Part shown: piece by piece, positions 2,527 to 62,119 of the stretch
Layout: each line of letters starts with the position of its first letter
Numbering within the stretch: the first letter of the stretch is position 1
From: Escherichia phage PNJ1809-36
Length of the DNA: 64,000 nt
Direction: 5' to 3' (one strand)
Sequence record: MT944117.1
Program-made: the position numbers and the translations under genes
Notes under the pieces: generated by a model
The model's input: only the letters and a program-made list of their open reading frames with translations
Told to the model about the DNA's origin: nothing
The model's database searches: none

Positions 2527-2865
2527 ATGTTTAGTAAAGAAATGAGAGAGGTAATCGCTACTCTGGTAGTTGATCATGGTGTTGAAGTTGAGCGTCACGT
2601 TTGGAAAGACGAGCCTCCTTTCTTTGATTTGGCATCACGGGCTAAAAGTCACATGTATCTCCTTGAAGATGATAAGGATTTTATTCTGCGTATGCGTTAT
2701 GATCGAGAGTTTAGAATTCCTCTTGACACAGATCCTGATGATGTAGTATTGTGGTTGGCAGAGCATTTCGCATTTAACGCTCTACATGGAAGAAGTTTTG
2801 GTAATGAACGTTGGGATACCATTTGTCGTAAACATAATATTGAACCAGAATACGGGAGTATGTAA
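2527..2865 (+). CDS. hypothetical protein (112 aa)
   Basis: ATG 2527 after SD GGAGG. Confidence 0.6.
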   Translation: MFSKEMREVIATLVVDHGVEVERHVWKDEPPFFDLASRAKSHMYLLEDDKDFILRMRYDREFRIPLDTDPDDVVLWLAEHFAFNALHGRSFGNERWDTICRKHNIEPEYGSM

Positions 2866-3116
2866 TGTTAAGTATCAAACCTAAAATGATTACTGAAGAT
2901 CAAAAAGATTACATTTATAAATGTGGTCGGGTGTGGAAAGAATACACTAAAGGTAATGAAGTTATTGTAGTTACGGAACATGCTATTTCTTTATCAGATC
3001 TTTTTGGTGATTATTTGCAAGTCATTAAAATTGGTATTGACAGAGGTTTGGTGCAGGTGTTAACATTATCCCAAGTTGAAGCAGAACACTTAGACAAAAT
3101 CATTGTCGAGTTCTAA
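2865..3116 (+). CDS. hypothetical protein (83 aa)
   Basis: ORF, start overlaps upstream stop. Confidence 0.55.
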   Translation: MLSIKPKMITEDQKDYIYKCGRVWKEYTKGNEVIVVTEHAISLSDLFGDYLQVIKIGIDRGLVQVLTLSQVEAEHLDKIIVEF

Positions 3117-3129
3117 GAGGAGAAAGAAT

Positions 3130-3294
3130 ATGATCTCTTTAGAATCAATAGCTTTTAAGAAAGGGTATACCGCAGGGTTCAAGTTTGGTATGTTTAATAA
3201 AGTAAATCCATATTGTCCAATGACACACAAAAAGGAATTCGAAGAATGGGAAGATGGATTTTCTAAAGGCTATCAGGCAAAAGGTTGGTTGTAA
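3130..3294 (+). CDS. hypothetical protein (54 aa)
   Basis: ATG 3130 after SD AAGAGGAG. Confidence 0.5.
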   Translation: MISLESIAFKKGYTAGFKFGMFNKVNPYCPMTHKKEFEEWEDGFSKGYQAKGWL

Positions 3295-3303
3295 GGAGAG
3301 AAT

Positions 3304-3468
3304 ATGATTTTAAACTTCATCATCAACTTGTGTTTGACATTGGGATTACTCTGTGCAATAGTATCCCCTCTGGTTGGTGAATATTGTTCTGAACTGGCGA
3401 TGTTTATAGTTCTTGGTGCGGCTATTGCTAATATGTTTATCGCTGCGATTTGTATGTTGTGGGAATAG
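3304..3468 (+). CDS. small membrane peptide (54 aa)
   Basis: SD AAGGAG + ATG 3304; two hydrophobic segments; below 60 aa so absent from ORF track. Confidence 0.45.
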   Translation: MILNFIINLCLTLGLLCAIVSPLVGEYCSELAMFIVLGAAIANMFIAAICMLWE

Positions 3469-3479
3469 GAGGGAAGTTT

Positions 3480-3836
3480 ATGAAAAAACTAATCTTAGCC
3501 ACATTGCTGGCTACCGTAAGCTTCACCACTTACGCTCAAAAATTTGTAGCAGTTAAAACGGATATTGGTAAAGATGTTGTGATCACAGGCAACAAATTTT
3601 ACTATACACCTGGGAATGGTGTTCTAGAAGAGTGCCAAGATGTTGAGGCATATACAGGAAAAGAAGATAACACGGAACGTCCTTTTTATTCGATTATAGC
3701 TACTTGCAAAAATGAAATAGTAGCTATTAAACAATACAAAGATGCCCCTGGAGGAGAGTACTTGTTAGTCAAGAATATTAAGAGTGAAAAAACTGCAAAG
3801 TTTACAGTAATTATTTTAAAAGGAGAAACGTTCTAA
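3480..3836 (+). CDS. secreted small protein with N-terminal signal peptide
   Basis: SD AGGAGGG + ATG 3480; MKKLILATLLATVSFTTYAQ signal-like N-terminus. Confidence 0.65.
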   Translation: MKKLILATLLATVSFTTYAQKFVAVKTDIGKDVVITGNKFYYTPGNGVLEECQDVEAYTGKEDNTERPFYSIIATCKNEIVAIKQYKDAPGGEYLLVKNIKSEKTAKFTVIILKGETF

Positions 3837-4975
3837 TGAAATACACTATTTTTGGAGATGTAGCTGTTGTAAATAAGGAATATGGCGTTGAAGCTAATAA
3901 ACTTCCTGCTGGAGTTTGGGTTGTCAACTGCGATCCGCACGGTAACTACTCTTTAGTGCGTGGCGAAAGTTTCTCTCTTCCGAACACTCTTTATGGGGAA
4001 ACTAAAGATCGCGCCGCACATGTTATTAAAACATTTGCTCGTCGTAGTAAAGAAGGTAAAAATACTGGGGTGTTACTGACAGGGACAAAAGGCAGTGGTA
4101 AGACGATGTTAGCTAAACTGATTAGCATGTCTCTAATGTCCACAGAAGGTTTAGGTATTCCAACCATTTTGGTTACACAGCCTTACACAGATGCTGGATT
4201 CTTAGAATTTATGAGTAAAATTACAGATCGTGCTGTTGTTTTATTTGACGAATTTGATAAAGTGTATGCTAAGAAAGAAGATCAGGAAGCACTGTTGACC
4301 TTGTTGGATGGAACAGGAAGTGGGAATAAACTTTACATCCTCACTAAAAATAGTGGTTATATCTCGGAATATTTTGTAAACCGTCCTAGTCGTATCTACT
4401 ACAGTTTCAATTACGATAAACTGTCTAGTGAAACTATGTTAGATTACTTGGATAAGAACTTGGTAAATAAAAAACACGTAGATAACTTCCAACGTTTATG
4501 GGATGTTAGCACAGAGTTGTCTTTCGATGTTATTCAAGGCATTGTAGAAGAATTGAATTTCTATCCAAAAATGACTTTTAAAGAATGTCTTGAAATGATG
4601 GGTATTTCTTTAGGCAATGATGCTAAATGGAATGTGGTTTCTATTGTAGCTAATGGCAAAACCTTGAAGGTGAATTGGATCAATAACTGGCACGACTTTA
4701 CCCCTACTAAGTTTTTGTCGGGTGCTTGTTCCTTGAACATCTATCTACAAAGCTTGAAAGATGATGAAGTGGAAGCAATGGAAACCAATAGTTATGTTAT
4801 CCTAGACGAAGATGGCGACCCACATATTGATCTATGTGCAACTGCTGATGGTCTAACTTGTGATCTGATTGAAGGTGGTAAGATCCTGGTGATGAGCACT
4901 ACACCAGGAAACACTCTGCGAGTGGTGCTGGAGCCTGTAACGCAGCGATCTACCACACTGGGTAGCGTATTCTGA
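3836..4975 (+). CDS. AAA+ family ATPase
   Basis: Walker A GTKGSGKT, Walker B VVLFDEFD, sensor ILTKN; 379 aa. Confidence 0.75.
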   Translation: MKYTIFGDVAVVNKEYGVEANKLPAGVWVVNCDPHGNYSLVRGESFSLPNTLYGETKDRAAHVIKTFARRSKEGKNTGVLLTGTKGSGKTMLAKLISMSLMSTEGLGIPTILVTQPYTDAGFLEFMSKITDRAVVLFDEFDKVYAKKEDQEALLTLLDGTGSGNKLYILTKNSGYISEYFVNRPSRIYYSFNYDKLSSETMLDYLDKNLVNKKHVDNFQRLWDVSTELSFDVIQGIVEELNFYPKMTFKECLEMMGISLGNDAKWNVVSIVANGKTLKVNWINNWHDFTPTKFLSGACSLNIYLQSLKDDEVEAMETNSYVILDEDGDPHIDLCATADGLTCDLIEGGKILVMSTTPGNTLRVVLEPVTQRSTTLGSVF

Positions 4976-4992
4976 TACAGCACAAATAGCTA

Positions 4993-5016
4993 AACCCGCT
5001 TCGGCGGGTTTTGTTA
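4993..5016 (+). terminator. rho-independent terminator (UUCG tetraloop)
   Basis: AACCCGC-TTCG-GCGGGTT followed by TTTGTT. Confidence 0.7.
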
Positions 5017-5044
5017 TATTGATTTCAGTTTAATAGGAAGAGAA

Positions 5045-6052
5045 TTGTTAGATATGCCAGTAAAGAAGAGTATTGAAACATATATGGAAGAATGTAAGCC
5101 GATAGCTGAGGCTAAAGGGATTACCATTCTCGGCACGTATGGAGAAGATAAAGGTGTGCATACGAAGATGATCAATCGTTGTGAGCATGGTCATGAATGG
5201 AATACTACAACGTTTCACAGTTTTAAAGATGGTCGAGGTTGTCCTAAGTGCGCCTACAGGGAACGTTCGAAAAAGAGAAGCAAAGCTATCACTATTCCAG
5301 ACCAGCAACACATACAAGATTTTATGAAGGTAGGTAAATTTAAGGAAGGCACTATTTTCACCAATACAGGAGAACGTAAAGGGTGTGATATAGTATGGAT
5401 GGTTGAATGTCCTGTTTGCTCTCATGATGAATATGTGGAAGCTGGGGTGTGTGATGGTAAATTCTATGCTACCGGAAGTCATCTTAAACGTGGGTGTCTC
5501 CCTTGCCGCTGTTCTACAAGTTACAAATACACAGAGGATCAGACCACCTATAGAACAAGAAAGGAAGTAGAAAGGAGAGGATATATATGGGTAGGATGGA
5601 TCGGTAAACCTTCAACAATGGGTAAGTTTAAATATGGATGTAAGGAGCACGGGGAACAGATAGGGCGTGCAGATGGTTTGCTACATAAGGGGAGTGGGTG
5701 TCCGCAGTGCGGGGGCCAAAACCAACAACAATGTTACATTAATCATATTTATGATGAAGATGGTATTCTTTGTGCACTGAAGTTTGGTATTGCCAATAGT
5801 AGTGATCGCCGTATCAAAGAACAGAATAGCCGCAATGTGTTTACTATGAGACAAGTTCAAGTGTGGCAGTTCCCCACTGTGAAGCAGTGCAAAAATTCAG
5901 AAAAGTATTGCAAAAAGGTGTTAGACACAGAAGCAGTGAGCAAATATGCTATGCCAGACGGCTACACAGAAACAGTGGAGCTATCTTGTCTGGCATCAAT
6001 ACAAAACATTTATAAACTTTATGGTGGAATATTACAGGAGGAAACATGTTAG
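5045..6052 (+). CDS. T5orf172/GIY-YIG-like domain protein with Cys-rich N-terminal repeats (homing-endonuclease-like)
   Basis: three GCPxC-type repeats; C-terminal KFGIANSSDRRIKEQNS resembles T5orf172 core; start may be TTG 5045 or ATG 5054. Confidence 0.55.
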   Translation: MLDMPVKKSIETYMEECKPIAEAKGITILGTYGEDKGVHTKMINRCEHGHEWNTTTFHSFKDGRGCPKCAYRERSKKRSKAITIPDQQHIQDFMKVGKFKEGTIFTNTGERKGCDIVWMVECPVCSHDEYVEAGVCDGKFYATGSHLKRGCLPCRCSTSYKYTEDQTTYRTRKEVERRGYIWVGWIGKPSTMGKFKYGCKEHGEQIGRADGLLHKGSGCPQCGGQNQQQCYINHIYDEDGILCALKFGIANSSDRRIKEQNSRNVFTMRQVQVWQFPTVKQCKNSEKYCKKVLDTEAVSKYAMPDGYTETVELSCLASIQNIYKLYGGILQEETC

Positions 6053-6411
6053 TTGACGTTCAAATTATGCGCAACGAAAGAATGGACTTCTTTGAAGCAG
6101 TAGAGAAACATCTGATCAGATGGGACTATGAATTTGTTCCTGCTGGATGTGGACCAGTAGAGCATTTAGCGGAAGACGATGATGTATACATGATCATTCG
6201 TCAAGTGTACCAGACAGACCAGTGTGAAGAAACTCCCGAACTGATTTTGTTTGAGTGTAAAGATCTTGCAAAATATTTTGACTATGGCGGAAAAGAGGGT
6301 CATAATCTCTCCAGATACAATAAACGTCTACTTATCTTAGACTACATGCGGAACAACAAACACAAACTCATCGACGCAGACGCAGTTTATGGCTACTGGT
6401 GGATGGATTAA
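6046..6411 (+). CDS. hypothetical protein (121 aa)
   Basis: SD CAGGAGG + ATG 6046. Confidence 0.6.
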   Translation: MLVDVQIMRNERMDFFEAVEKHLIRWDYEFVPAGCGPVEHLAEDDDVYMIIRQVYQTDQCEETPELILFECKDLAKYFDYGGKEGHNLSRYNKRLLILDYMRNNKHKLIDADAVYGYWWMD

Positions 6412-6424
6412 CAAAGGAGAAACT

Positions 6425-6613
6425 ATGGCACGTTTAGCAGATAACCCTGTATTCTACCCCGTTCTTGATCTTTATGATGAATTGACATATGTTGTGGAGC
6501 GGTATAATTACAATGAAGACCTCTTGGAGACAAACCTTAAAGTAGTTCTGATGAAAGCCTATCAGCAAGGGCAACGTGAAATTTTGGAGAGTATGAAAAA
6601 TGCGAATAACTGA
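6425..6613 (+). CDS. hypothetical protein (62 aa)
   Basis: ATG 6425 after SD AAAGGAG. Confidence 0.5.
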   Translation: MARLADNPVFYPVLDLYDELTYVVERYNYNEDLLETNLKVVLMKAYQQGQREILESMKNANN

Positions 6614-7142
6614 TGATTATGTATTCTTCTTTTCACATAAAGATGTTTTTAGTAATTGGTATATTGCACCCTTTACAGAAACCGAACCAAGTTACAATCA
6701 GACATTTAATTGTGTCGAACAATACATGATGTGGCGTAAAGCTTTGCTTTTTAATGATCACAACACTGCACAGGCTATTCTGACTCATAGCTTAAAACGA
6801 GAAGATGAGAAGATACAAGCTTATTACAAACGTATGGGTAGGGCAGTAGCAGGTTTCGATAACAAAATATGGGAAGAGAATCGTGAGCGTATTGTTATGC
6901 GAGGTTTATGCTTGAAGTATGTACAGAATCCAGACTTGTATGCCGATTTACGTCTATATCAATACAAAACATTTGTTGAAGCAAGTCCTTACGATAAGGT
7001 ATACGGAATTGGAATGGGGATGTATGAACCAGGGGTGCTAAACCCTGCCACCTGGAAAGGGCAGAATCTTTTAGGCAAATATCATAACAAACTGATCGAA
7101 ATACTTTTCCCAGACAAAATACCGCAAAGACGATATTTGTGA
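6600..7142 (+). CDS. NADAR-domain (YbiA/DUF1768-like) protein
   Basis: FSNWYIAPF, EQYMMWRKALLF, RMGRAV...W..NRE..VMRG...KY, YGIGMG...G.NLLGK blocks match the YbiA-family pattern. Confidence 0.75.
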   Translation: MRITDDYVFFFSHKDVFSNWYIAPFTETEPSYNQTFNCVEQYMMWRKALLFNDHNTAQAILTHSLKREDEKIQAYYKRMGRAVAGFDNKIWEENRERIVMRGLCLKYVQNPDLYADLRLYQYKTFVEASPYDKVYGIGMGMYEPGVLNPATWKGQNLLGKYHNKLIEILFPDKIPQRRYL

Positions 7143-51304: not shown

Positions 51305-52146
51305 TACCTCTCCTTATTAAGTAATACTGCTAAAGACTGTTCAATACCTTTATTTAAATCTGATTTTGTAAGATAGTGACTGGTTACTAGTTGTGACTTC
51401 ACCGGACGTGCTGCTGGAGCATTATAGGTTGAAGCTGATACCGCCGATATCTTAACAGGTTCTGGCATCTGTGTCAAGATCTTTTCCGCAAACTCCGCCC
51501 AAGAAATAAGATGGCTTCCTGCAAAATGGTAAGTCTTAACAGACCTTGACCAACCTGTTTTTAATACTTCAAAAATAGCTTCTGCTAAATCTGGAGCATA
51601 TGTTGGACAAGAGAACTGATCAGCAACAATAATAAAATCACGTTGTCCATCATTATAGCGAGACAACATGGTTTTTAGAAAGTTATTTCCAAATTCGCTA
51701 TATACCGAGGCTGTTCGAATAATATATGCATTTGGGTTAACTCCTCGCACCATTTTTTCACCAAGTTCTTTCGTATACCCATAATTGTTTATTGGGTTAG
51801 GTGTAGTATCTTCAAAAATAGGATGAGAATAATTAAAAATATAGTCTGTAGAAATATGCACAAAATCAATTTTAAGTTTGCTGCACACTGCCGCAATATT
51901 TGCAGGTCCATACGCATTAACAGCCAAAGCAGTAGCAAAATCATGTTCTGCTTTATCTACAGCCGTATAAGCGGCGCAATTAATAACACCATCTACATAA
52001 TCTTCAATAATAGCGTTTCGCACAGCTTCAAAATTTGTAATATCTACACGTTCTTTAGGATAAATTAAAGATACATTTGAAGGAGCCACTTTACGTAAAG
52101 CTTGTCCCAGTTGTCCATTACCGCCCAATACCAGATATGTTAGCAT
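51304..52146 (-). CDS. rmlD: dTDP-4-dehydrorhamnose reductase
   Basis: N-terminal GGNGQLG Rossmann motif; 280 aa; operon with rmlC/A/B. Confidence 0.85.
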   Translation of the reverse strand: MLTYLVLGGNGQLGQALRKVAPSNVSLIYPKERVDITNFEAVRNAIIEDYVDGVINCAAYTAVDKAEHDFATALAVNAYGPANIAAVCSKLKIDFVHISTDYIFNYSHPIFEDTTPNPINNYGYTKELGEKMVRGVNPNAYIIRTASVYSEFGNNFLKTMLSRYNDGQRDFIIVADQFSCPTYAPDLAEAIFEVLKTGWSRSVKTYHFAGSHLISWAEFAEKILTQMPEPVKISAVSASTYNAPAARPVKSQLVTSHYLTKSDLNKGIEQSLAVLLNKER

Positions 52147-52706
52147 ACACCCTCGCTACGTAACTGTTGAAAAGATTTAGCCATTGCATCTTTTGTTGAT
52201 AGAATAGGTTTAAAACCTTCGTCAAAAATCATATCGAAGCCCCAATCGATCCCTATATCAGGATCATCCCAACGTAAACTTTGTTCACTAGAAGGGTCGT
52301 ATGGAGTTGTGCATTTGTATTCAAAGATAGCATCCATACTCAAAACTATAAAACCATGAGCCAAACCAGGCGGAAGCCAAAACTGCGTATGGTGTCGTGC
52401 ACGAAGAACAACACCGTCCCAAGCACCGTAAGTTGGACTATCTTTACGTAAATCTACAGCGAAATCCAATACTTCCCCACTTACACAACGAACTAGCTTA
52501 CCTTGCGGGTTATTTGTTTGAAAGTGCATTCCTCGCAAAACACCGAAGTTTGATTTAGACATGTTATCTTGAACGAAAGTTTGTCTACCAATAATATCTT
52601 CGTATTTTTGTTCATTATATGTTTCTAGAAAGAAACCACGATCATCTTTATAAACGTCTGGTTTGATAATTACCGCACCTTCAATTTTTGTTTTTTCTAC
52701 TTTCAT
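52140..52706 (-). CDS. rmlC: dTDP-4-dehydrorhamnose 3,5-epimerase
   Basis: RGMHFQ motif region; ATG 52706 forms ATGA overlap with rmlA stop. Confidence 0.85.
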
Positions 52707-53581
52707 TTTCTCTCCGCTAATTTGAGTAGGTATTGCCCGTACTCTGTTTTCTTCAGTGAGTTTCCATGATACACCAAAGTCTCTAAAGAAATCCACCCTT
52801 TTTTGAAAGCAATTTCTTCCAGGCACGCAATCTTCAATCCTTGACAGTTCTCAATAGTCTGCACGAATTGACCGGCTTCCATCAGACTGGCGTGTGTTCC
52901 TGTGTCAAGCCAAGTAAATCCTCGTCCGAGAACTTCCACTTGTAACTTCCTGTCTTCTAGGTAGCTGCGATTGATATCAGTGATCTCCAGTTCTCCACGC
53001 GCGGAAGGGGTTACTTCTAATGCACGTTGAATAACAGAGTTATCATAGAAATACAAACCTGTGACAGCATAATCTGATTTAGGATTTTCAGGTTTCTCTT
53101 CAATAGAAATAGCTTGACGATTACTCCCAAATTCAACCACACCGAATCGTTCAGGATCTTTCACCAAATACCCGAAAATACAAGCTCCGCCCCAAACATC
53201 TACCATCTCACTGGCGTTAATCAGTAGTTTACCAAAGCTTTGTCCGAAGAATAGGTTGTCACCTAAAATAAGAGCAACAGAGTCTTCTCCGATAAAATCT
53301 TTACCTATGATGAAAGCTTCCGCAAGACCTCGTGGCTCGGATTGGATTGCGTAAGTGAGTTTTATCCCAAACATAGACCCATCTCCGAGAAGATACTCAA
53401 AGTCTTCCTGATCACCTGGTGTGGTGATGATTAAAATATCCTTAATGTCAGCCAACATCAATACCGATAAAGGGTAGTAGATCATGGGTTTGTCATACAC
53501 AGGGAGCAATTGCTTGCTCACACTGCGTGTTACCGGATGAAGGCGGGTTCCACTTCCTCCCGCCAAAATAATACCTTTCAT
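52703..53581 (-). CDS. rmlA: glucose-1-phosphate thymidylyltransferase
   Basis: [19 protein letters not shown]-terminus; SD AAGGAGGG. Confidence 0.9.
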
Positions 53582-53589
53582 AACCCTCC

Positions 53590-54582
53590 TTAAATTTTCT
53601 CACTCCACCATTGAGGGTTGTTTAAGTACCATTCAATCGTTGAGTAGAGATCTTGTTCAAATGTAGAGTTTGCACTCCAGCCCAGTTCAGACTCTATCTT
53701 AGAAGGATTGATTTCATAACGCAAGTCATGTCCTTTACGATCTTCAACAAAAGTTATCAAGTTGGAAGAAGGGTAGGTTACTGCTTCTGGATGTACAGTA
53801 TCCATATAGTCACAAACCATATAGATGATCTCCATATTGGTTTTGGGATTACGTGTTCCAACATTATACGTTTGACCTGGTTCTCCACCTGTTGCCACTT
53901 GAAGAATAGCTCGCGCATGATCCTCAACAAAAAGCCAGTCTCGCACCTGGTCGCCTTTACCATACACCGGAATCTCTTTATTCGTCAAGATACTTGTGAT
54001 GATTTTTGGGATCAGCTTTTCTGGATGTTGATAAGGCCCAAAGTTATTGGAGCAGTTGGTTATCACAACAGGCAAATCGTAGGTGCGGTGCCAAGCTTTC
54101 ACAAGATGGTCAGATGCCGCCTTAGACGCACTGTATGGGCTTGAAGGGGCATAAGCTGTCTCTTCGGTAAAAGGAACGCCAGAGTCTGCCATATCGCCGT
54201 ACACTTCGTCTGTGGAGACGTGTACGAACATCTTCAGTTTATTTTTTGGGAGGAGCCTTGCAGCTTCCAATAAATTGTATGTACCAATAATATTGGAGTC
54301 AATGAAAACTCGTGGATTCTTGATAGAATTATCCACATGACTCTCTGCCGCTAAGTGAATGATGAAATCGGGATTGCACTCTACTACTAAACTTTTGACC
54401 TGGGTTTCGTTTGCCAAATCTGTCATGCTTAGTTTAATGTGAGTGATATCGCCTACATTCTCAATATCTGCTGCATAGCCCATCTTATCAACGACAAAAA
54501 CTTCGTTATTAGGATCTTGACAAAGAGAGCGCACCACGGCACTCCCAATAAAACCAAGACCACCTGTTACCAGATAGCGCAT
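53590..54582 (-). CDS. rmlB: dTDP-glucose 4,6-dehydratase
   Basis: [17 protein letters not shown] Rossmann N-terminus; SDR dehydratase length; SD AAGGAG. Confidence 0.9.
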
Positions 54583-56508: not shown

Positions 56509-56833
56509 TTAAATCCTCCACTATTTCACAAAAACCTCTTAAGCTTAAAATATCTTCTTCCTCAAAATCATTGCTCCGGTAGAAAGCTTCCAGTGCTTCC
56601 CATACGCTTCTACCAAGTATAACAGTCACTGTTTCTTCACTTCTTGCCCTTGTTATTGCGTAAGCCGTGGCTTCTGGATAAAAAGATTCCCAAATCTGCA
56701 TGTTAGCTATTTCAAGACCGCCAAGATAATGGTGACACCAAGTAGGGGTAAAATCTTCAGGGCGAATCAACAGAGGCTTAAACCCAGGTCGGTAGATTGG
56801 GGTTACTCCAGGTAAAACTATAAGTGTGCTCAT
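56495..56833 (-). CDS. hypothetical protein (112 aa) between nrdA and nrdB
   Basis: internal ATG of listed ORF (avoids overlap with nrdA and terminator hairpin). Confidence 0.5.
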   Translation of the reverse strand: MSTLIVLPGVTPIYRPGFKPLLIRPEDFTPTWCHHYLGGLEIANMQIWESFYPEATAYAITRARSEETVTVILGRSVWEALEAFYRSNDFEEEDILSLRGFCEIVEDLNGSN

Positions 56834-61526: not shown

Positions 61527-61554
61527 AGTATAGTTATCTTATACTAACTTTCAA
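61527..61554 (-). promoter_or_regulatory. putative sigma70-type promoter for nucleotidase-thyX unit
   Basis: minus strand TTGAAA-N16-TATACT; overlaps 3' end of HNH ORF. Confidence 0.45.
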
Positions 61555-62119
61555 TTTCCTGCAATAGGATTTTGACTATTTGTTTGCGGCGTTTCGCTAC
61601 TGTGCTTTCAGGTTCTATTTTACGCTTCTTCAACCAAGCTTTATCTTTCTTAGCTCTACACAAAGCTATTGCTTCTTTTTCAGCTTTCGCTTCTTCAAAA
61701 GATATACCTTGTTTATCTGCATAAGCAAGAATAGAGTTGCACAATTTACAAACCATTCGCAAATCTTCTTCTTTCACATAGATCAAACGGAAAACAAAAA
61801 GGGGAATATCCTCAAAACATTGAAGTTGTTTTGCTGCGTGAATATGATCCACTTGGAAGTCTTTCATTCCTCCTCTGTGTCCACATATTTCGCACTCACA
61901 ATTCCAAACTTGTTTTGGTTTTCCAGTTTTCTTGTCTATCATCACATTGCCGTCTTTATCTACACGATCAACTTTAAAACGCCTTGCATTGATAACCTTA
62001 ATTTTATTAGGGTGTCTCATCCATGCTTTTCTAAAACATCCCCTAAGATAAGTATAAAATTCAGCTTGTGTTTTCCAGGGTGTTCCTTCACCCCACATTA
62101 TTTTTGGTTCACCTGCCAA
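61544..62119 (-). CDS. HNH homing endonuclease
   Basis: CECEICGH...FQVDHIHA...CKLCN (HNH-type His/Cys/Asn motif); basic C-terminus. Confidence 0.7.
   Translation of the reverse strand: MAGEPKIMWGEGTPWKTQAEFYTYLRGCFRKAWMRHPNKIKVINARRFKVDRVDKDGNVMIDKKTGKPKQVWNCECEICGHRGGMKDFQVDHIHAAKQLQCFEDIPLFVFRLIYVKEEDLRMVCKLCNSILAYADKQGISFEEAKAEKEAIALCRAKKDKAWLKKRKIEPESTVAKRRKQIVKILLQEIES

What the first reader, a model, noticed from the sequence alone, without database searches (positions are those of the whole stretch)
5045..6052. T5orf172/GIY-YIG-like protein with three Cys-rich N-terminal repeats
The C-terminal segment resembles the T5orf172 core, while the N-terminal 230 aa contain three repeats of a GCPxC-type module. 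This combination looks like a DNA-binding zinc-finger array fused to a GIY-YIG-like nuclease domain, possibly a second homing-type endonuclease in the early region.
Basis: inference. Interest (0 to 1): 0.4.

Follow-up and report, generated by a model that had tools for sequence, protein, structure and literature searches.

The report
Zinc-finger homing-type endonuclease gene in phage
This is a real gene of a phAPEC8-like E. coli phage that joins three zinc-finger DNA-binding modules to a GIY-YIG-type DNA-cutting domain and varies between related phages like a selfish 'homing endonuclease' gene; this gene type was described in 2021-2023, so the case is ordinary.

Summary

- **The gene:** window 5045-6052 (+) is one ORF of 335 aa. 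The likely start is the ATG at 5054, giving 332 aa.
- **N-terminal part:** it carries three CapR-homology zinc modules (Pfam PF21817, 83 bits, 3 stretches).
- **Locus behaviour:** the gene sits between an ATPase gene's terminator and the next gene's RBS. It is cleanly absent from phiWec188/190 but present in the 95-100% identical phiWec181. In other relatives it is replaced by alleles of 39-77% identity with 3-5 repeats, while the flanks stay 97-100% identical.

This matches the "CapR/Zn-finger + T5orf172" free-standing homing endonuclease class of Netter 2021 and Barth 2023. Nuclease activity and homing were not tested. It is a new member of a known kind, of low interest.

The parts
3836..4975 (+). 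Upstream ATPase gene (379 aa). It is the conserved anchor: a homologue of the endonuclease sits directly downstream of it in Phapecoctavirus and in Justusliebigvirus.
   Evidence: ORF list; annotated 'ATPase' in Mt1B1_P17, ZCKP1, phAPEC8 and alia. Its last ~340 bp are 94-96% identical to ZCKP1 and tuntematon, against 98-100% further upstream.
4992..5011 (+). Intrinsic-terminator-like hairpin (AAACCCGC-TTCG-GCGGGTTT plus a T-rich tail) between the ATPase stop codon and the endonuclease gene.
   Evidence: Consensus scan; RNA fold z-score -2.9. Other alleles and the empty site carry a different hairpin (GCCCCGCAAGGGGC) at the same place.
5035..5042 (+). Shine-Dalgarno-like AGGAAGAG, 11 nt upstream of the ATG at 5054.
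   Evidence: Read directly from the sequence; it sits in an open loop of the predicted RNA fold.
5045..6052 (+). Endonuclease ORF: 335 aa from the TTG at 5045, or probably 332 aa from the ATG at 5054. The stop codon TAG is at 6050-6052.
   Evidence: PHROG 681 'endonuclease' E 1.3e-64; orthologues are annotated 'endonuclease' or 'putative homing endonuclease'.
5093..5254 (+). Zinc module 1 (aa 17-70), CapR-like/DUF4379-like. Candidate ligands are C46, H48, C66 and C69.
   Evidence: Pfam CapR 35 bits and DUF4379 23 bits; C46, C66 and C69 are 96-100% conserved; helix-plus-strand module at pLDDT >90.
5318..5515 (+). Zinc module 2 (aa 92-157), a canonical CapR homology domain. Candidate ligands are C122, C125, C154 and C156 (CxxC...CxC).
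   Evidence: Pfam CapR 53.4 bits, E 2.9e-14; ligand conservation; the motif is as described for CapR in PMC8096241.
5552..5713 (+). Zinc module 3 (aa 170-223), a divergent CapR/DUF723-like module. Candidate ligands are C199, H202, C219 and C222.
   Evidence: Pfam CapR 20.6 bits, E 5e-4, below cutoff when scanned alone but counted as the third stretch in the whole protein; these residues are conserved in every homologue that aligns there.
5729..6043 (+). GIY-YIG-superfamily (T5orf172-like) nuclease domain, aa 229-333. Invariant residues are Y231, K246, G248, R256, E286, D305, G306, E309 and T310.
6046..6411 (+). Downstream 121-aa gene. Its ATG overlaps the endonuclease stop codon (ATGTTAG), and its RBS (GGAGGAAA) lies inside the last codons of the endonuclease gene.
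   Evidence: In the empty site of phiWec188 the same RBS and ATG follow the ATPase terminator directly.

Best explanation
The gene encodes a modular, sequence-specific DNA endonuclease of the free-standing homing-endonuclease type. Three tandem CapR-type zinc modules (aa ~17-223) are expected to read an extended DNA target. The C-terminal T5orf172-like GIY-YIG domain (aa ~229-333) is expected to cut nearby DNA using the invariant Arg256 and Glu286, together with Tyr231 and the DGYTET motif. The gene lies in the intergenic gap between the ATPase terminator and the RBS of the next gene, so it disrupts neither neighbour. The likely mechanism applies to mixed infections. The enzyme would cut the locus of a related phage that lacks the gene or carries a different allele. 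Recombinational repair from the cutter's genome would then copy the gene, and a variable stretch of flank, into the cut genome.

Shown here: the domain architecture, the fold, the residue conservation, the presence/absence polymorphism, and allele replacement with sharp boundaries.

Inferred: zinc and DNA binding, cleavage, the target site, and homing itself.
For: - **DNA-binding array:** CapR domain matched three times at 83 bits. CapR is an experimentally shown DNA-binding protein; mutating its four conserved cysteines (proposed zinc ligands) was tested by EMSA and linked to DNA binding (PMC8096241).
- **Active site:** Y, K-x-G, R, E and DG-TET are invariant across the alignments (34 and 49 sequences). 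A T5orf172 protein, ICP1 Odn, is a proven nuclease that needs the Glu aligned to I-TevI E75 (PMC8263062).
- **Mobility signature:** phiWec181 (gene present) and phiWec188 (gene absent) are 95-100% identical over more than 2 kb on each side of a clean ~1 kb indel. The contiguous empty junction is also found in phiWec190 and EP57, and apparently in four Klebsiella phage records (three phages), while about 67 records are occupied. The window is 98-100% identical to ZCKP1, tuntematon and phAPEC8 in the flanks but 40-85% identical inside the gene.
- **Repeat variation:** repeat number ranges from 1 to 6 across the family and from 3 to 5 at this same locus.
- **Precedent:** the architecture and this behaviour match the published class (PMC10448857).
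Against: - There is no biochemical or genetic evidence for cleavage or homing of this protein.
- The window protein alone does not reach Pfam's T5orf172 cutoff.
- Sequence-only comparisons with PDB GIY-YIG proteins and with I-TevI are not significant, and Foldseek against the PDB found nothing significant.
- The gene occupies the same site in roughly 90% of sequenced relatives, and in a second genus. That also fits a retained, useful function rather than pure selfishness.
- No target site could be identified.
- No promoter was found between the terminator and the gene, so how it is expressed is unknown.
Confidence: 0.68

Rival explanations
1. It is a domesticated or neofunctionalised nuclease that serves the phage rather than itself. 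The zinc-finger array would direct the GIY-YIG domain against competitors, for example by excluding co-infecting relatives' markers, attacking a phage satellite as ICP1 Odn does, or cutting host DNA. An arms race would then drive the allele diversity.
For: - The gene is present at the same position in about 90% of relatives and in a second genus.
- The catalytic residues are invariant.
- Allelic divergence is extreme and concentrated in the DNA-binding repeats.
- There is precedent in Odn and in RepA_N-T5orf172 genes of Mt1B1_P17, Inny and Muut (PMC8263062; PMC10448857).
Against: - Nothing related was found by DNA search in 5,426 complete E. coli genomes, by protein search in plasmids, or by a scan for the zinc-finger region's protein in one genome per bacterial species. 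So no satellite or host counterpart of the DNA-binding modules was found.
- The DNA-binding part is the generic CapR type typical of homing endonuclease genes, not a captured RepA_N domain.
- Clean empty sites exist in apparently viable phages, so the gene is dispensable.
- It matches no model in the PADLOC library of bacterial anti-phage defence proteins.
Confidence: 0.2
2. It is mainly a DNA-binding regulator. The CapR-type modules would bind a promoter or operator, as PLE CapR does at the ICP1 capsid promoter or I-TevI does at its own promoter. The GIY-YIG-like domain would be inactive or secondary.
For: - CapR itself is a repressor derived from this kind of endonuclease (PMC8096241).
Against: - The full set of residues at GIY-YIG core positions (Y231, R256, E286, DGYTET) is invariant across homologues 27-99% identical over the full length. 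That is not expected for a dead domain.
- Presence/absence and allele turnover are unlike a core regulator.
Confidence: 0.08
3. It is an artefact: a chance ORF, or chance cysteine motifs with no functional protein.
For: None beyond the TTG start listed for the ORF and the absence of a recognisable sigma-70-type promoter.
Against: - Pfam CapR E 1.5e-23 and PHROG 681 E 1e-64.
- 67 homologues in the first search, and 1,453 representative clusters for the C-terminal domain.
- AlphaFold pLDDT of 93-94.
- Intact orthologues in dozens of phage genomes.
Confidence: 0.01

Closest known systems
ICP1 'CapR-domain + T5orf172' putative homing endonucleases (Gp165, Gp174, Gp121, Gp53, Gp130; Netter 2021 PMC8096241; Barth 2023 PMC10448857)
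   Same: The architecture is the same: one to several N-terminal CapR-type zinc modules followed by a C-terminal T5orf172-type GIY-YIG domain. tblastn links the CapR regions at 34-35% identity. ICP1 Gp165 has four CapR stretches, and its T5orf172 score is also below cutoff (18.2 bits). They share the free-standing position, variable repeat number and location at boundaries of genetic exchange.
   Different: The host and phage lineage differ (E. coli Stephanstirmvirinae rather than Vibrio ICP1). The nuclease domains are too diverged for BLAST, and hhalign against Gp165 gives only E 0.008, although it does align the same motifs. Repeats 1 and 3 here use a Cys3-His pattern rather than CxxC...CxC. 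This protein's accessions were not found in the supplementary files of Barth 2023 that are held as text; Mt1B1_P17 appears there only as a genome record.
PLE CapR (Vibrio cholerae phage satellite repressor of the ICP1 capsid operon)
   Same: It has the same DNA-binding domain family (Pfam PF21817). Repeat 2 carries the CxxC...CxC motif whose cysteines were mutated to test CapR's DNA binding.
   Different: CapR is a 15.5 kDa single-domain repressor with no nuclease domain. The window protein has three modules plus an apparently intact GIY-YIG domain.
ICP1 Odn (Gp88) and the RepA_N-T5orf172 nucleases of coliphages Inny, Muut and Mt1B1_P17
   Same: They carry a T5orf172-type nuclease domain, which for Odn is a proven DNA endonuclease dependent on the Glu equivalent to I-TevI E75. 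Another Mt1B1_P17 protein with this fold appears among the BFVD hits (A0A7G8L1C8, E 2.5e-7).
   Different: Their DNA-binding domain is RepA_N, captured from a satellite, and they are interpreted as anti-satellite weapons. The window protein has CapR-type zinc modules, and no chromosomal counterpart was found.
T4 I-TevI and the Seg family (canonical GIY-YIG homing endonucleases)
   Different: The domain order is reversed: in I-TevI the nuclease is N-terminal. The GIY and YIG motifs are replaced by Y-I-N and K-F-G, and sequence similarity is undetectable. The DNA-binding part here is a tandem zinc-module array rather than a zinc finger, minor-groove helix and HTH.
SLX1 / HIGLE structure-specific GIY-YIG nucleases
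   Different: They are eukaryotic structure-specific repair nucleases with 13-15% identity, different partner domains (RING/PHD, Slx4) and a different biology. The match establishes the fold, not orthology.

Membership tests
CapR homology domain (Pfam PF21817) | Score above Pfam's curated gathering threshold (24.2 bits) | tested here: met
   The whole protein scores 83.2 bits, E 1.5e-23, with 3 stretches. Scanned alone, repeat 1 scores 35.0, repeat 2 scores 53.4 and repeat 3 scores 20.6, the last below cutoff on its own.
CapR homology domain (Pfam PF21817) | Two cysteine pairs, CxxC ... CxC, spaced ~24-26 aa apart (Netter 2021) | tested here: met
   Repeat 2 has C122-x2-C125 ... C154-x-C156, with a 28-aa spacer, conserved in 94-98% of homologues. 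Repeats 1 and 3 carry a variant, C-x(1-2)-H ... C-x2-C, so the motif is met strictly by only one of the three modules.
CapR homology domain (Pfam PF21817) | Zinc-dependent sequence-specific DNA binding | not testable with these tools
   Needs EMSA or metal analysis. It is known only for PLE CapR.
T5orf172 (Pfam PF10544), GIY-YIG clan | Score above Pfam's curated threshold (20 bits) for this protein | tested here: not met
   The score is 14.1-16.3 bits (E 0.014-0.07) and MUG113 scores 15 bits. I therefore file the domain as 'GIY-YIG superfamily, T5orf172-like', not as a strict Pfam T5orf172 member.
T5orf172 (Pfam PF10544), GIY-YIG clan | Family-level profile similarity to T5orf172/MUG113 | tested here: met
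   24 of 34 homologous C-terminal domains hit T5orf172 (best E 5.4e-6) and 19 of 34 hit MUG113. Homologue P0014 scores 21.7 bits, above the cutoff of 20. A BFVD hit is annotated 'Bacteriophage T5 Orf172 DNA-binding domain' (E 7.9e-5). The published ICP1 member Gp165 also scores only 18.2 bits.
GIY-YIG nuclease superfamily | The beta-beta-alpha-beta-alpha(-alpha) GIY-YIG fold | tested here: met
GIY-YIG nuclease superfamily | Conserved catalytic Arg in helix 1 and Glu in the helix after strand 3, plus Tyr in strand 1 | tested here: met
   Y231, R256 and E286 are invariant in 34 and 49 sequences. Their secondary-structure positions correspond to I-TevI Y6, R27 and E75. This mapping is by topology and is an inference, because a sequence alignment to I-TevI is not significant.
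GIY-YIG nuclease superfamily | Metal-dependent DNA cleavage | not testable with these tools
   Needs an in vitro nuclease assay. It has been shown for the T5orf172 protein Odn.
Free-standing homing endonuclease gene | Presence/absence polymorphism at one site in otherwise near-identical genomes | tested here: met
   phiWec181 (present) and phiWec188/190 (absent) have flanks 95-100% identical and a clean ~1 kb indel.
Free-standing homing endonuclease gene | Intergenic position that leaves neighbouring genes intact | tested here: met
   The gene lies between the ATPase terminator and the RBS/ATG of the next gene. The same RBS and ATG are intact in the empty site.
Free-standing homing endonuclease gene | Cleavage of the endonuclease-less allele and super-Mendelian inheritance with flank co-conversion | not testable with these tools
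   There are only indirect hints. Exchange boundaries coincide with the gene, and identity is slightly lower (94-96%) in the last ~340 bp of the ATPase gene when alleles differ.

The most novel reading that the evidence does not exclude
The site downstream of the ATPase gene in Stephanstirmvirinae may be a long-lived diversification hotspot. There a GIY-YIG nuclease with a reprogrammable zinc-module array (3-5 repeats at this locus, alleles down to 39% identity in 98-100% identical backbones) would act as an inter-phage competition weapon. It would cut rival alleles or rival phages (marker exclusion), or an unknown satellite, rather than acting as a simple selfish homing gene. Successive zinc modules might then define a modular DNA-recognition code.
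Probability: 0.12. Interest if true: 0.45.

Novelty: new member of a known kind. Interest (0 to 1): 0.18.

Why it matters
Mostly it matters for annotation.

- **Annotation gap:** this gene and its many orthologues are labelled 'hypothetical protein', 'endonuclease' or 'CapR homology domain-containing protein'. Their nuclease domain is missed by Pfam thresholds. They can now be described as zinc-module plus T5orf172-like GIY-YIG homing-type endonucleases.
- **Extending a published pattern:** the case extends the class first described in Vibrio phage ICP1 to phAPEC8-like and phi92-like coliphages, which are being used as therapeutic and biocontrol candidates. It is also a clean natural example (phiWec181 against phiWec188/190) of the 'nuclease genes at boundaries of genetic exchange' pattern.
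- **Experimental use:** the occupied/empty phage pair is a ready-made system for the first direct test of homing by a T5orf172-class enzyme.
- **Possible application:** the variable zinc-module arrays could be of interest for programmable DNA recognition, if a recognition code exists.

None of this would surprise a specialist.

Tried and rejected
- **PDB by sequence:** phmmer with the whole protein found only noise. A profile of the C-terminal domain also found only noise (TUP1, eL13).
- **Profile-profile comparisons:** hhalign of the family profile against I-TevI 1-97 was not significant (E 0.063 over 16 columns). I had recalled that sequence from memory and verified it against 1MK0/1LN0. As a result the catalytic mapping rests on topology. 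hhalign against ICP1 Gp165 was weak (E 0.008, probability 5%), though it aligned K-x-G, R, E and the D/W-T-E motifs.
- **Internal repeats:** jackhmmer seeded with repeat 2 did not recover repeats 1 and 3. The repeats are therefore old and divergent, not a recent duplication.
- **Unavailable resource:** the AFDB50 fold library was not available.
- **Defence and host searches:** PADLOC gave no hit. The gene's DNA was not found in 5,426 complete E. coli genomes. No protein match was found in plasmids. The zinc-module array was not found in one genome per bacterial species. I therefore rejected a close host or satellite counterpart.
- **Within the window:** there is no paralogue. There is no sigma-70-like promoter between the terminator and the gene, and the RBS is not sequestered.
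- **A separate insert:** I considered whether the extra 1.9 kb at 52.7-54.6 kb was another mobile nuclease. It encodes RmlA/RmlB-like enzymes instead.
- **Supplementary tables:** the orthologue's accessions were not found in the supplementary files of Barth 2023 that are held as text.

Full report
**1. What is there**

Window 5045-6052 (+) is a single ORF of 335 aa counted from a TTG. An ATG at 5054 lies 11 nt downstream of an AGGAAGAG Shine-Dalgarno-like sequence, whereas the TTG is only 2 nt from it. The real product is therefore probably 332 aa. Public copies exist with both starts: P0001 has 332 aa, and Mt1B1_P17 QNJ49213 and UniProt A0A7S9SMD5 have 335 aa.

The window is a phAPEC8-like Escherichia myovirus (Phapecoctavirus, Stephanstirmvirinae). 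It is 97% identical to Mt1B1_P17 across this region and collinear with it over the window, apart from a few indels. A 335-aa protein of phage PNJ1809-36 is 100% identical over the 114 C-terminal residues that were compared. Orthologues are annotated 'hypothetical protein', 'endonuclease' (RefSeq) or 'putative homing endonuclease'.

**2. The N-terminal repeats**

Pfam's CapR homology domain (PF21817) matches three times, at 83.2 bits and E 1.5e-23 for the whole protein. Scanned separately, the modules score as follows:

| Module | Residues | CapR score | Other weak hits |
|---|---|---|---|
| 1 | 17-70 | 35 bits | DUF4379 |
| 2 | 92-157 | 53 bits | none |
| 3 | 170-223 | 20.6 bits (below cutoff alone) | DUF723 |

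A full-length AlphaFold model is confident (pLDDT 93.4). It shows three similar helix-plus-strand modules followed by a separate C-terminal domain. The pTM of 0.58 fits beads on a string.

Conservation across 49 homologues points to the likely zinc ligands:
- **Module 2:** C122, C125, C154 and C156, which is the CxxC...CxC pattern described for CapR.
- **Modules 1 and 3:** C-x(1-2)-H-G ... G-C-P-x-C, that is C46/H48/C66/C69 and C199/H202/C219/C222.

The modules are old and divergent. A jackhmmer search seeded with module 2 does not recover modules 1 or 3.

**3. The C-terminal domain**

This was the weak point of the claim. On its own the window protein scores only 14-16 bits on T5orf172 (cutoff 20) and 15 bits on MUG113. 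None of the 67 homologues carries a precomputed T5orf172 assignment.

I aligned 34 non-redundant C-terminal domains (alignment A1). Y, K-x-G, R, E, DG and ET are invariant. These correspond to Y231, K246, G248, R256, E286, D305, G306, E309 and T310 in 335-aa numbering, and the full-length alignment confirms them.

- **Pfam at family level:** scanned one by one, 24 of 34 members hit T5orf172 (best E 5e-6), 19 hit MUG113 and one hits GIY-YIG. A 58%-identical homologue passes the curated cutoff at 21.7 bits. The published ICP1 member Gp165 itself reaches only 18.2 bits. Sub-threshold scores are therefore typical of this class.
- **Structure:** the AlphaFold model of the domain (pLDDT 93.8) has the strand-strand-helix-strand-helix...helix order of GIY-YIG domains.
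- **Foldseek against BFVD:** 56 hits at E<=1e-3. They include proteins annotated 'GIY-YIG domain-containing' (K64-1, TM 0.82), 'Homing endonuclease' (phage UB, TM 0.84) and 'Bacteriophage T5 Orf172 DNA-binding domain-containing'.
- **Methods that did not see the relationship:** sequence-only searches of the PDB, Foldseek against the PDB, and hhalign against I-TevI alone.

By topology, Y231, R256 and E286 occupy the positions of I-TevI Y6, R27 and E75, and G306-Y307 occupies that of I-TevI G88-Y89. This mapping is an inference.

The domain family is large. It has 1,453 representative clusters at E<=1e-3, and in nearly all of the listed hits the domain is C-terminal to N-terminal regions of variable length.

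**4. Genomic behaviour**

The gene lies between a terminator-like hairpin that follows the ATPase gene (4992-5011) and the next gene. That gene's ATG overlaps the endonuclease stop codon (ATGTTAG), and its RBS is encoded by the endonuclease's last codons.

- **Empty site:** in phiWec188 the ATPase terminator is followed directly by that same RBS and ATG. Its relative phiWec181 is 95-100% identical for more than 2 kb on each side but carries a 337-aa homologue there.
- **How common the empty site is:** the contiguous empty junction also occurs in phiWec190 and EP57, and apparently in four Klebsiella phage records (three phages). About 67 records are split by an insert.
- **Allele replacement:** the window is 98-100% identical in both flanks to ZCKP1, tuntematon and phAPEC8. 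Identity falls to 40-60% inside the gene for ZCKP1 (a 486-aa allele with 5 repeats, 39% aa identity), and to 60-85% for tuntematon and phAPEC8. The boundaries lie at the gene's ends.
- **Where the divergence sits:** the zinc-module region diverges more than the 3' part of the nuclease domain.
- **Flank effect:** the last ~340 bp of the ATPase gene are slightly less identical (94-96%) when alleles differ. This fits variable co-conversion tracts but does not prove them.
- **Repeat number:** it ranges from 1 to 6 in the family, with protein lengths stepping by about 70 aa.
- **A second genus:** in Justusliebigvirus alia, a 465-aa, 5-repeat homologue also sits directly after the ATPase gene, although the downstream genes differ.

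**5. Mechanism**

The most likely reading is a free-standing homing-type endonuclease. The zinc-module array would bind an extended site. The tethered GIY-YIG domain would cut a rival genome that lacks the gene or has a different allele. Repair from the cutter's genome would then copy the gene and some flanking sequence.

The architecture, fold, residue conservation and population pattern are shown here. Binding, cleavage, target and homing are inferred.

Experimental precedents are CapR's DNA binding and the test of its conserved cysteines (PMC8096241) and the nuclease activity of the T5orf172 protein Odn, which E180A abolishes (PMC8263062).

Rivals:
- **A domesticated competition or anti-satellite nuclease.** Its near-fixation at this site favours this reading. 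Against it, I found no host, plasmid or bacterial counterpart, it matched no PADLOC model, and viable phages lack the gene.
- **A pure regulator.** The invariant catalytic residues and the gene's dispensability argue against it.

**6. Comparison with what is known**

Barth et al. 2023 describe this exact architecture: T5orf172 homing endonuclease genes whose DNA-binding part is a repeated CapR, DUF723 or DUF4379 zinc-finger domain. They found at least one of these domains in 200 of 229 such genes, with intragenic repeat recombination and location at boundaries of genetic exchange. Netter et al. 2021 defined the CapR domain and its link to these genes.

The window gene is thus a member of a published class. 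It is probably uncatalogued, because its nuclease domain falls below the Pfam thresholds used for such surveys. Its accessions are absent from the supplementary files of that survey that are held as text, where Mt1B1_P17 appears only as a genome record.

**7. Verdict**

This is a new member of a known kind, with low interest (0.18). The most useful by-product is the natural occupied/empty pair, phiWec181 against phiWec188/190, as a test system for homing by this enzyme class.

Noticed in passing
window 52703-54582 (minus strand): About 1.9 kb has no counterpart in the closest relative Mt1B1_P17. It encodes two ORFs that look like RmlA (glucose-1-phosphate thymidylyltransferase, 292 aa) and RmlB (dTDP-glucose 4,6-dehydratase, 330 aa), next to an RmlC-like epimerase (52140-52826). 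This suggests a more complete dTDP-sugar pathway in this phage. I assigned these by eye from the translations and did not test them against profiles.
   Followed up: partly
window 61547-62098 (minus strand): This is an orthologue (99.5% aa identity) of Mt1B1_P17 gp253, annotated 'HNH endonuclease'. It is a second, unrelated candidate mobile nuclease in the window, near the DNA polymerase exonuclease and nrd genes.
   Followed up: partly
window ~2836-3035 and ~6436-6635: Two short patches are only 59-84% identical to Mt1B1_P17, ZCKP1, tuntematon and phAPEC8, while the surrounding sequence is 98-100% identical. The second patch falls in the 74-aa ORF at 6389-6613. These are small mosaic or hypervariable segments of unknown meaning.
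   Followed up: no
window ~56520-56833: A gap of about 315 bp appears in the collinear mapping onto Mt1B1_P17, meaning an extra or strongly diverged segment in the window. I did not examine it.
   Followed up: no
L012 (Justusliebigvirus alia) 2703-4652, compared with window 5045-7142: In the phi92-like genus the homologous endonuclease (465 aa, 5 CapR repeats) is followed directly by the YbiA-like gene (the equivalent of window 6600-7142). The 121-aa and 74-aa genes at window 6046-6613 are missing there, so the endonuclease marks one edge of a variable segment.
   Followed up: partly
Mt1B1_P17 protein A0A7G8L1C8 (not in this window): A second Mt1B1_P17 protein (328 aa) has the same nuclease fold (BFVD E 2.5e-7, 31% identity). 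It may be the RepA_N-T5orf172 'odn-like' gene discussed by Barth 2023. No paralogue of the target protein was found among the window's ORFs of at least 80 aa.
   Followed up: partly
window 4992-5011 compared with L001/L003/L004 ~2645-2670: The terminator hairpin after the ATPase gene differs in sequence between allele groups: AAACCCGC...GCGGGTTT in the window and Mt1B1_P17, and GCCCCGCAAGGGGC in phiWec181/188 and ZCKP1. In the window lineage the exchanged unit therefore includes the terminator as well as the gene.
   Followed up: partly
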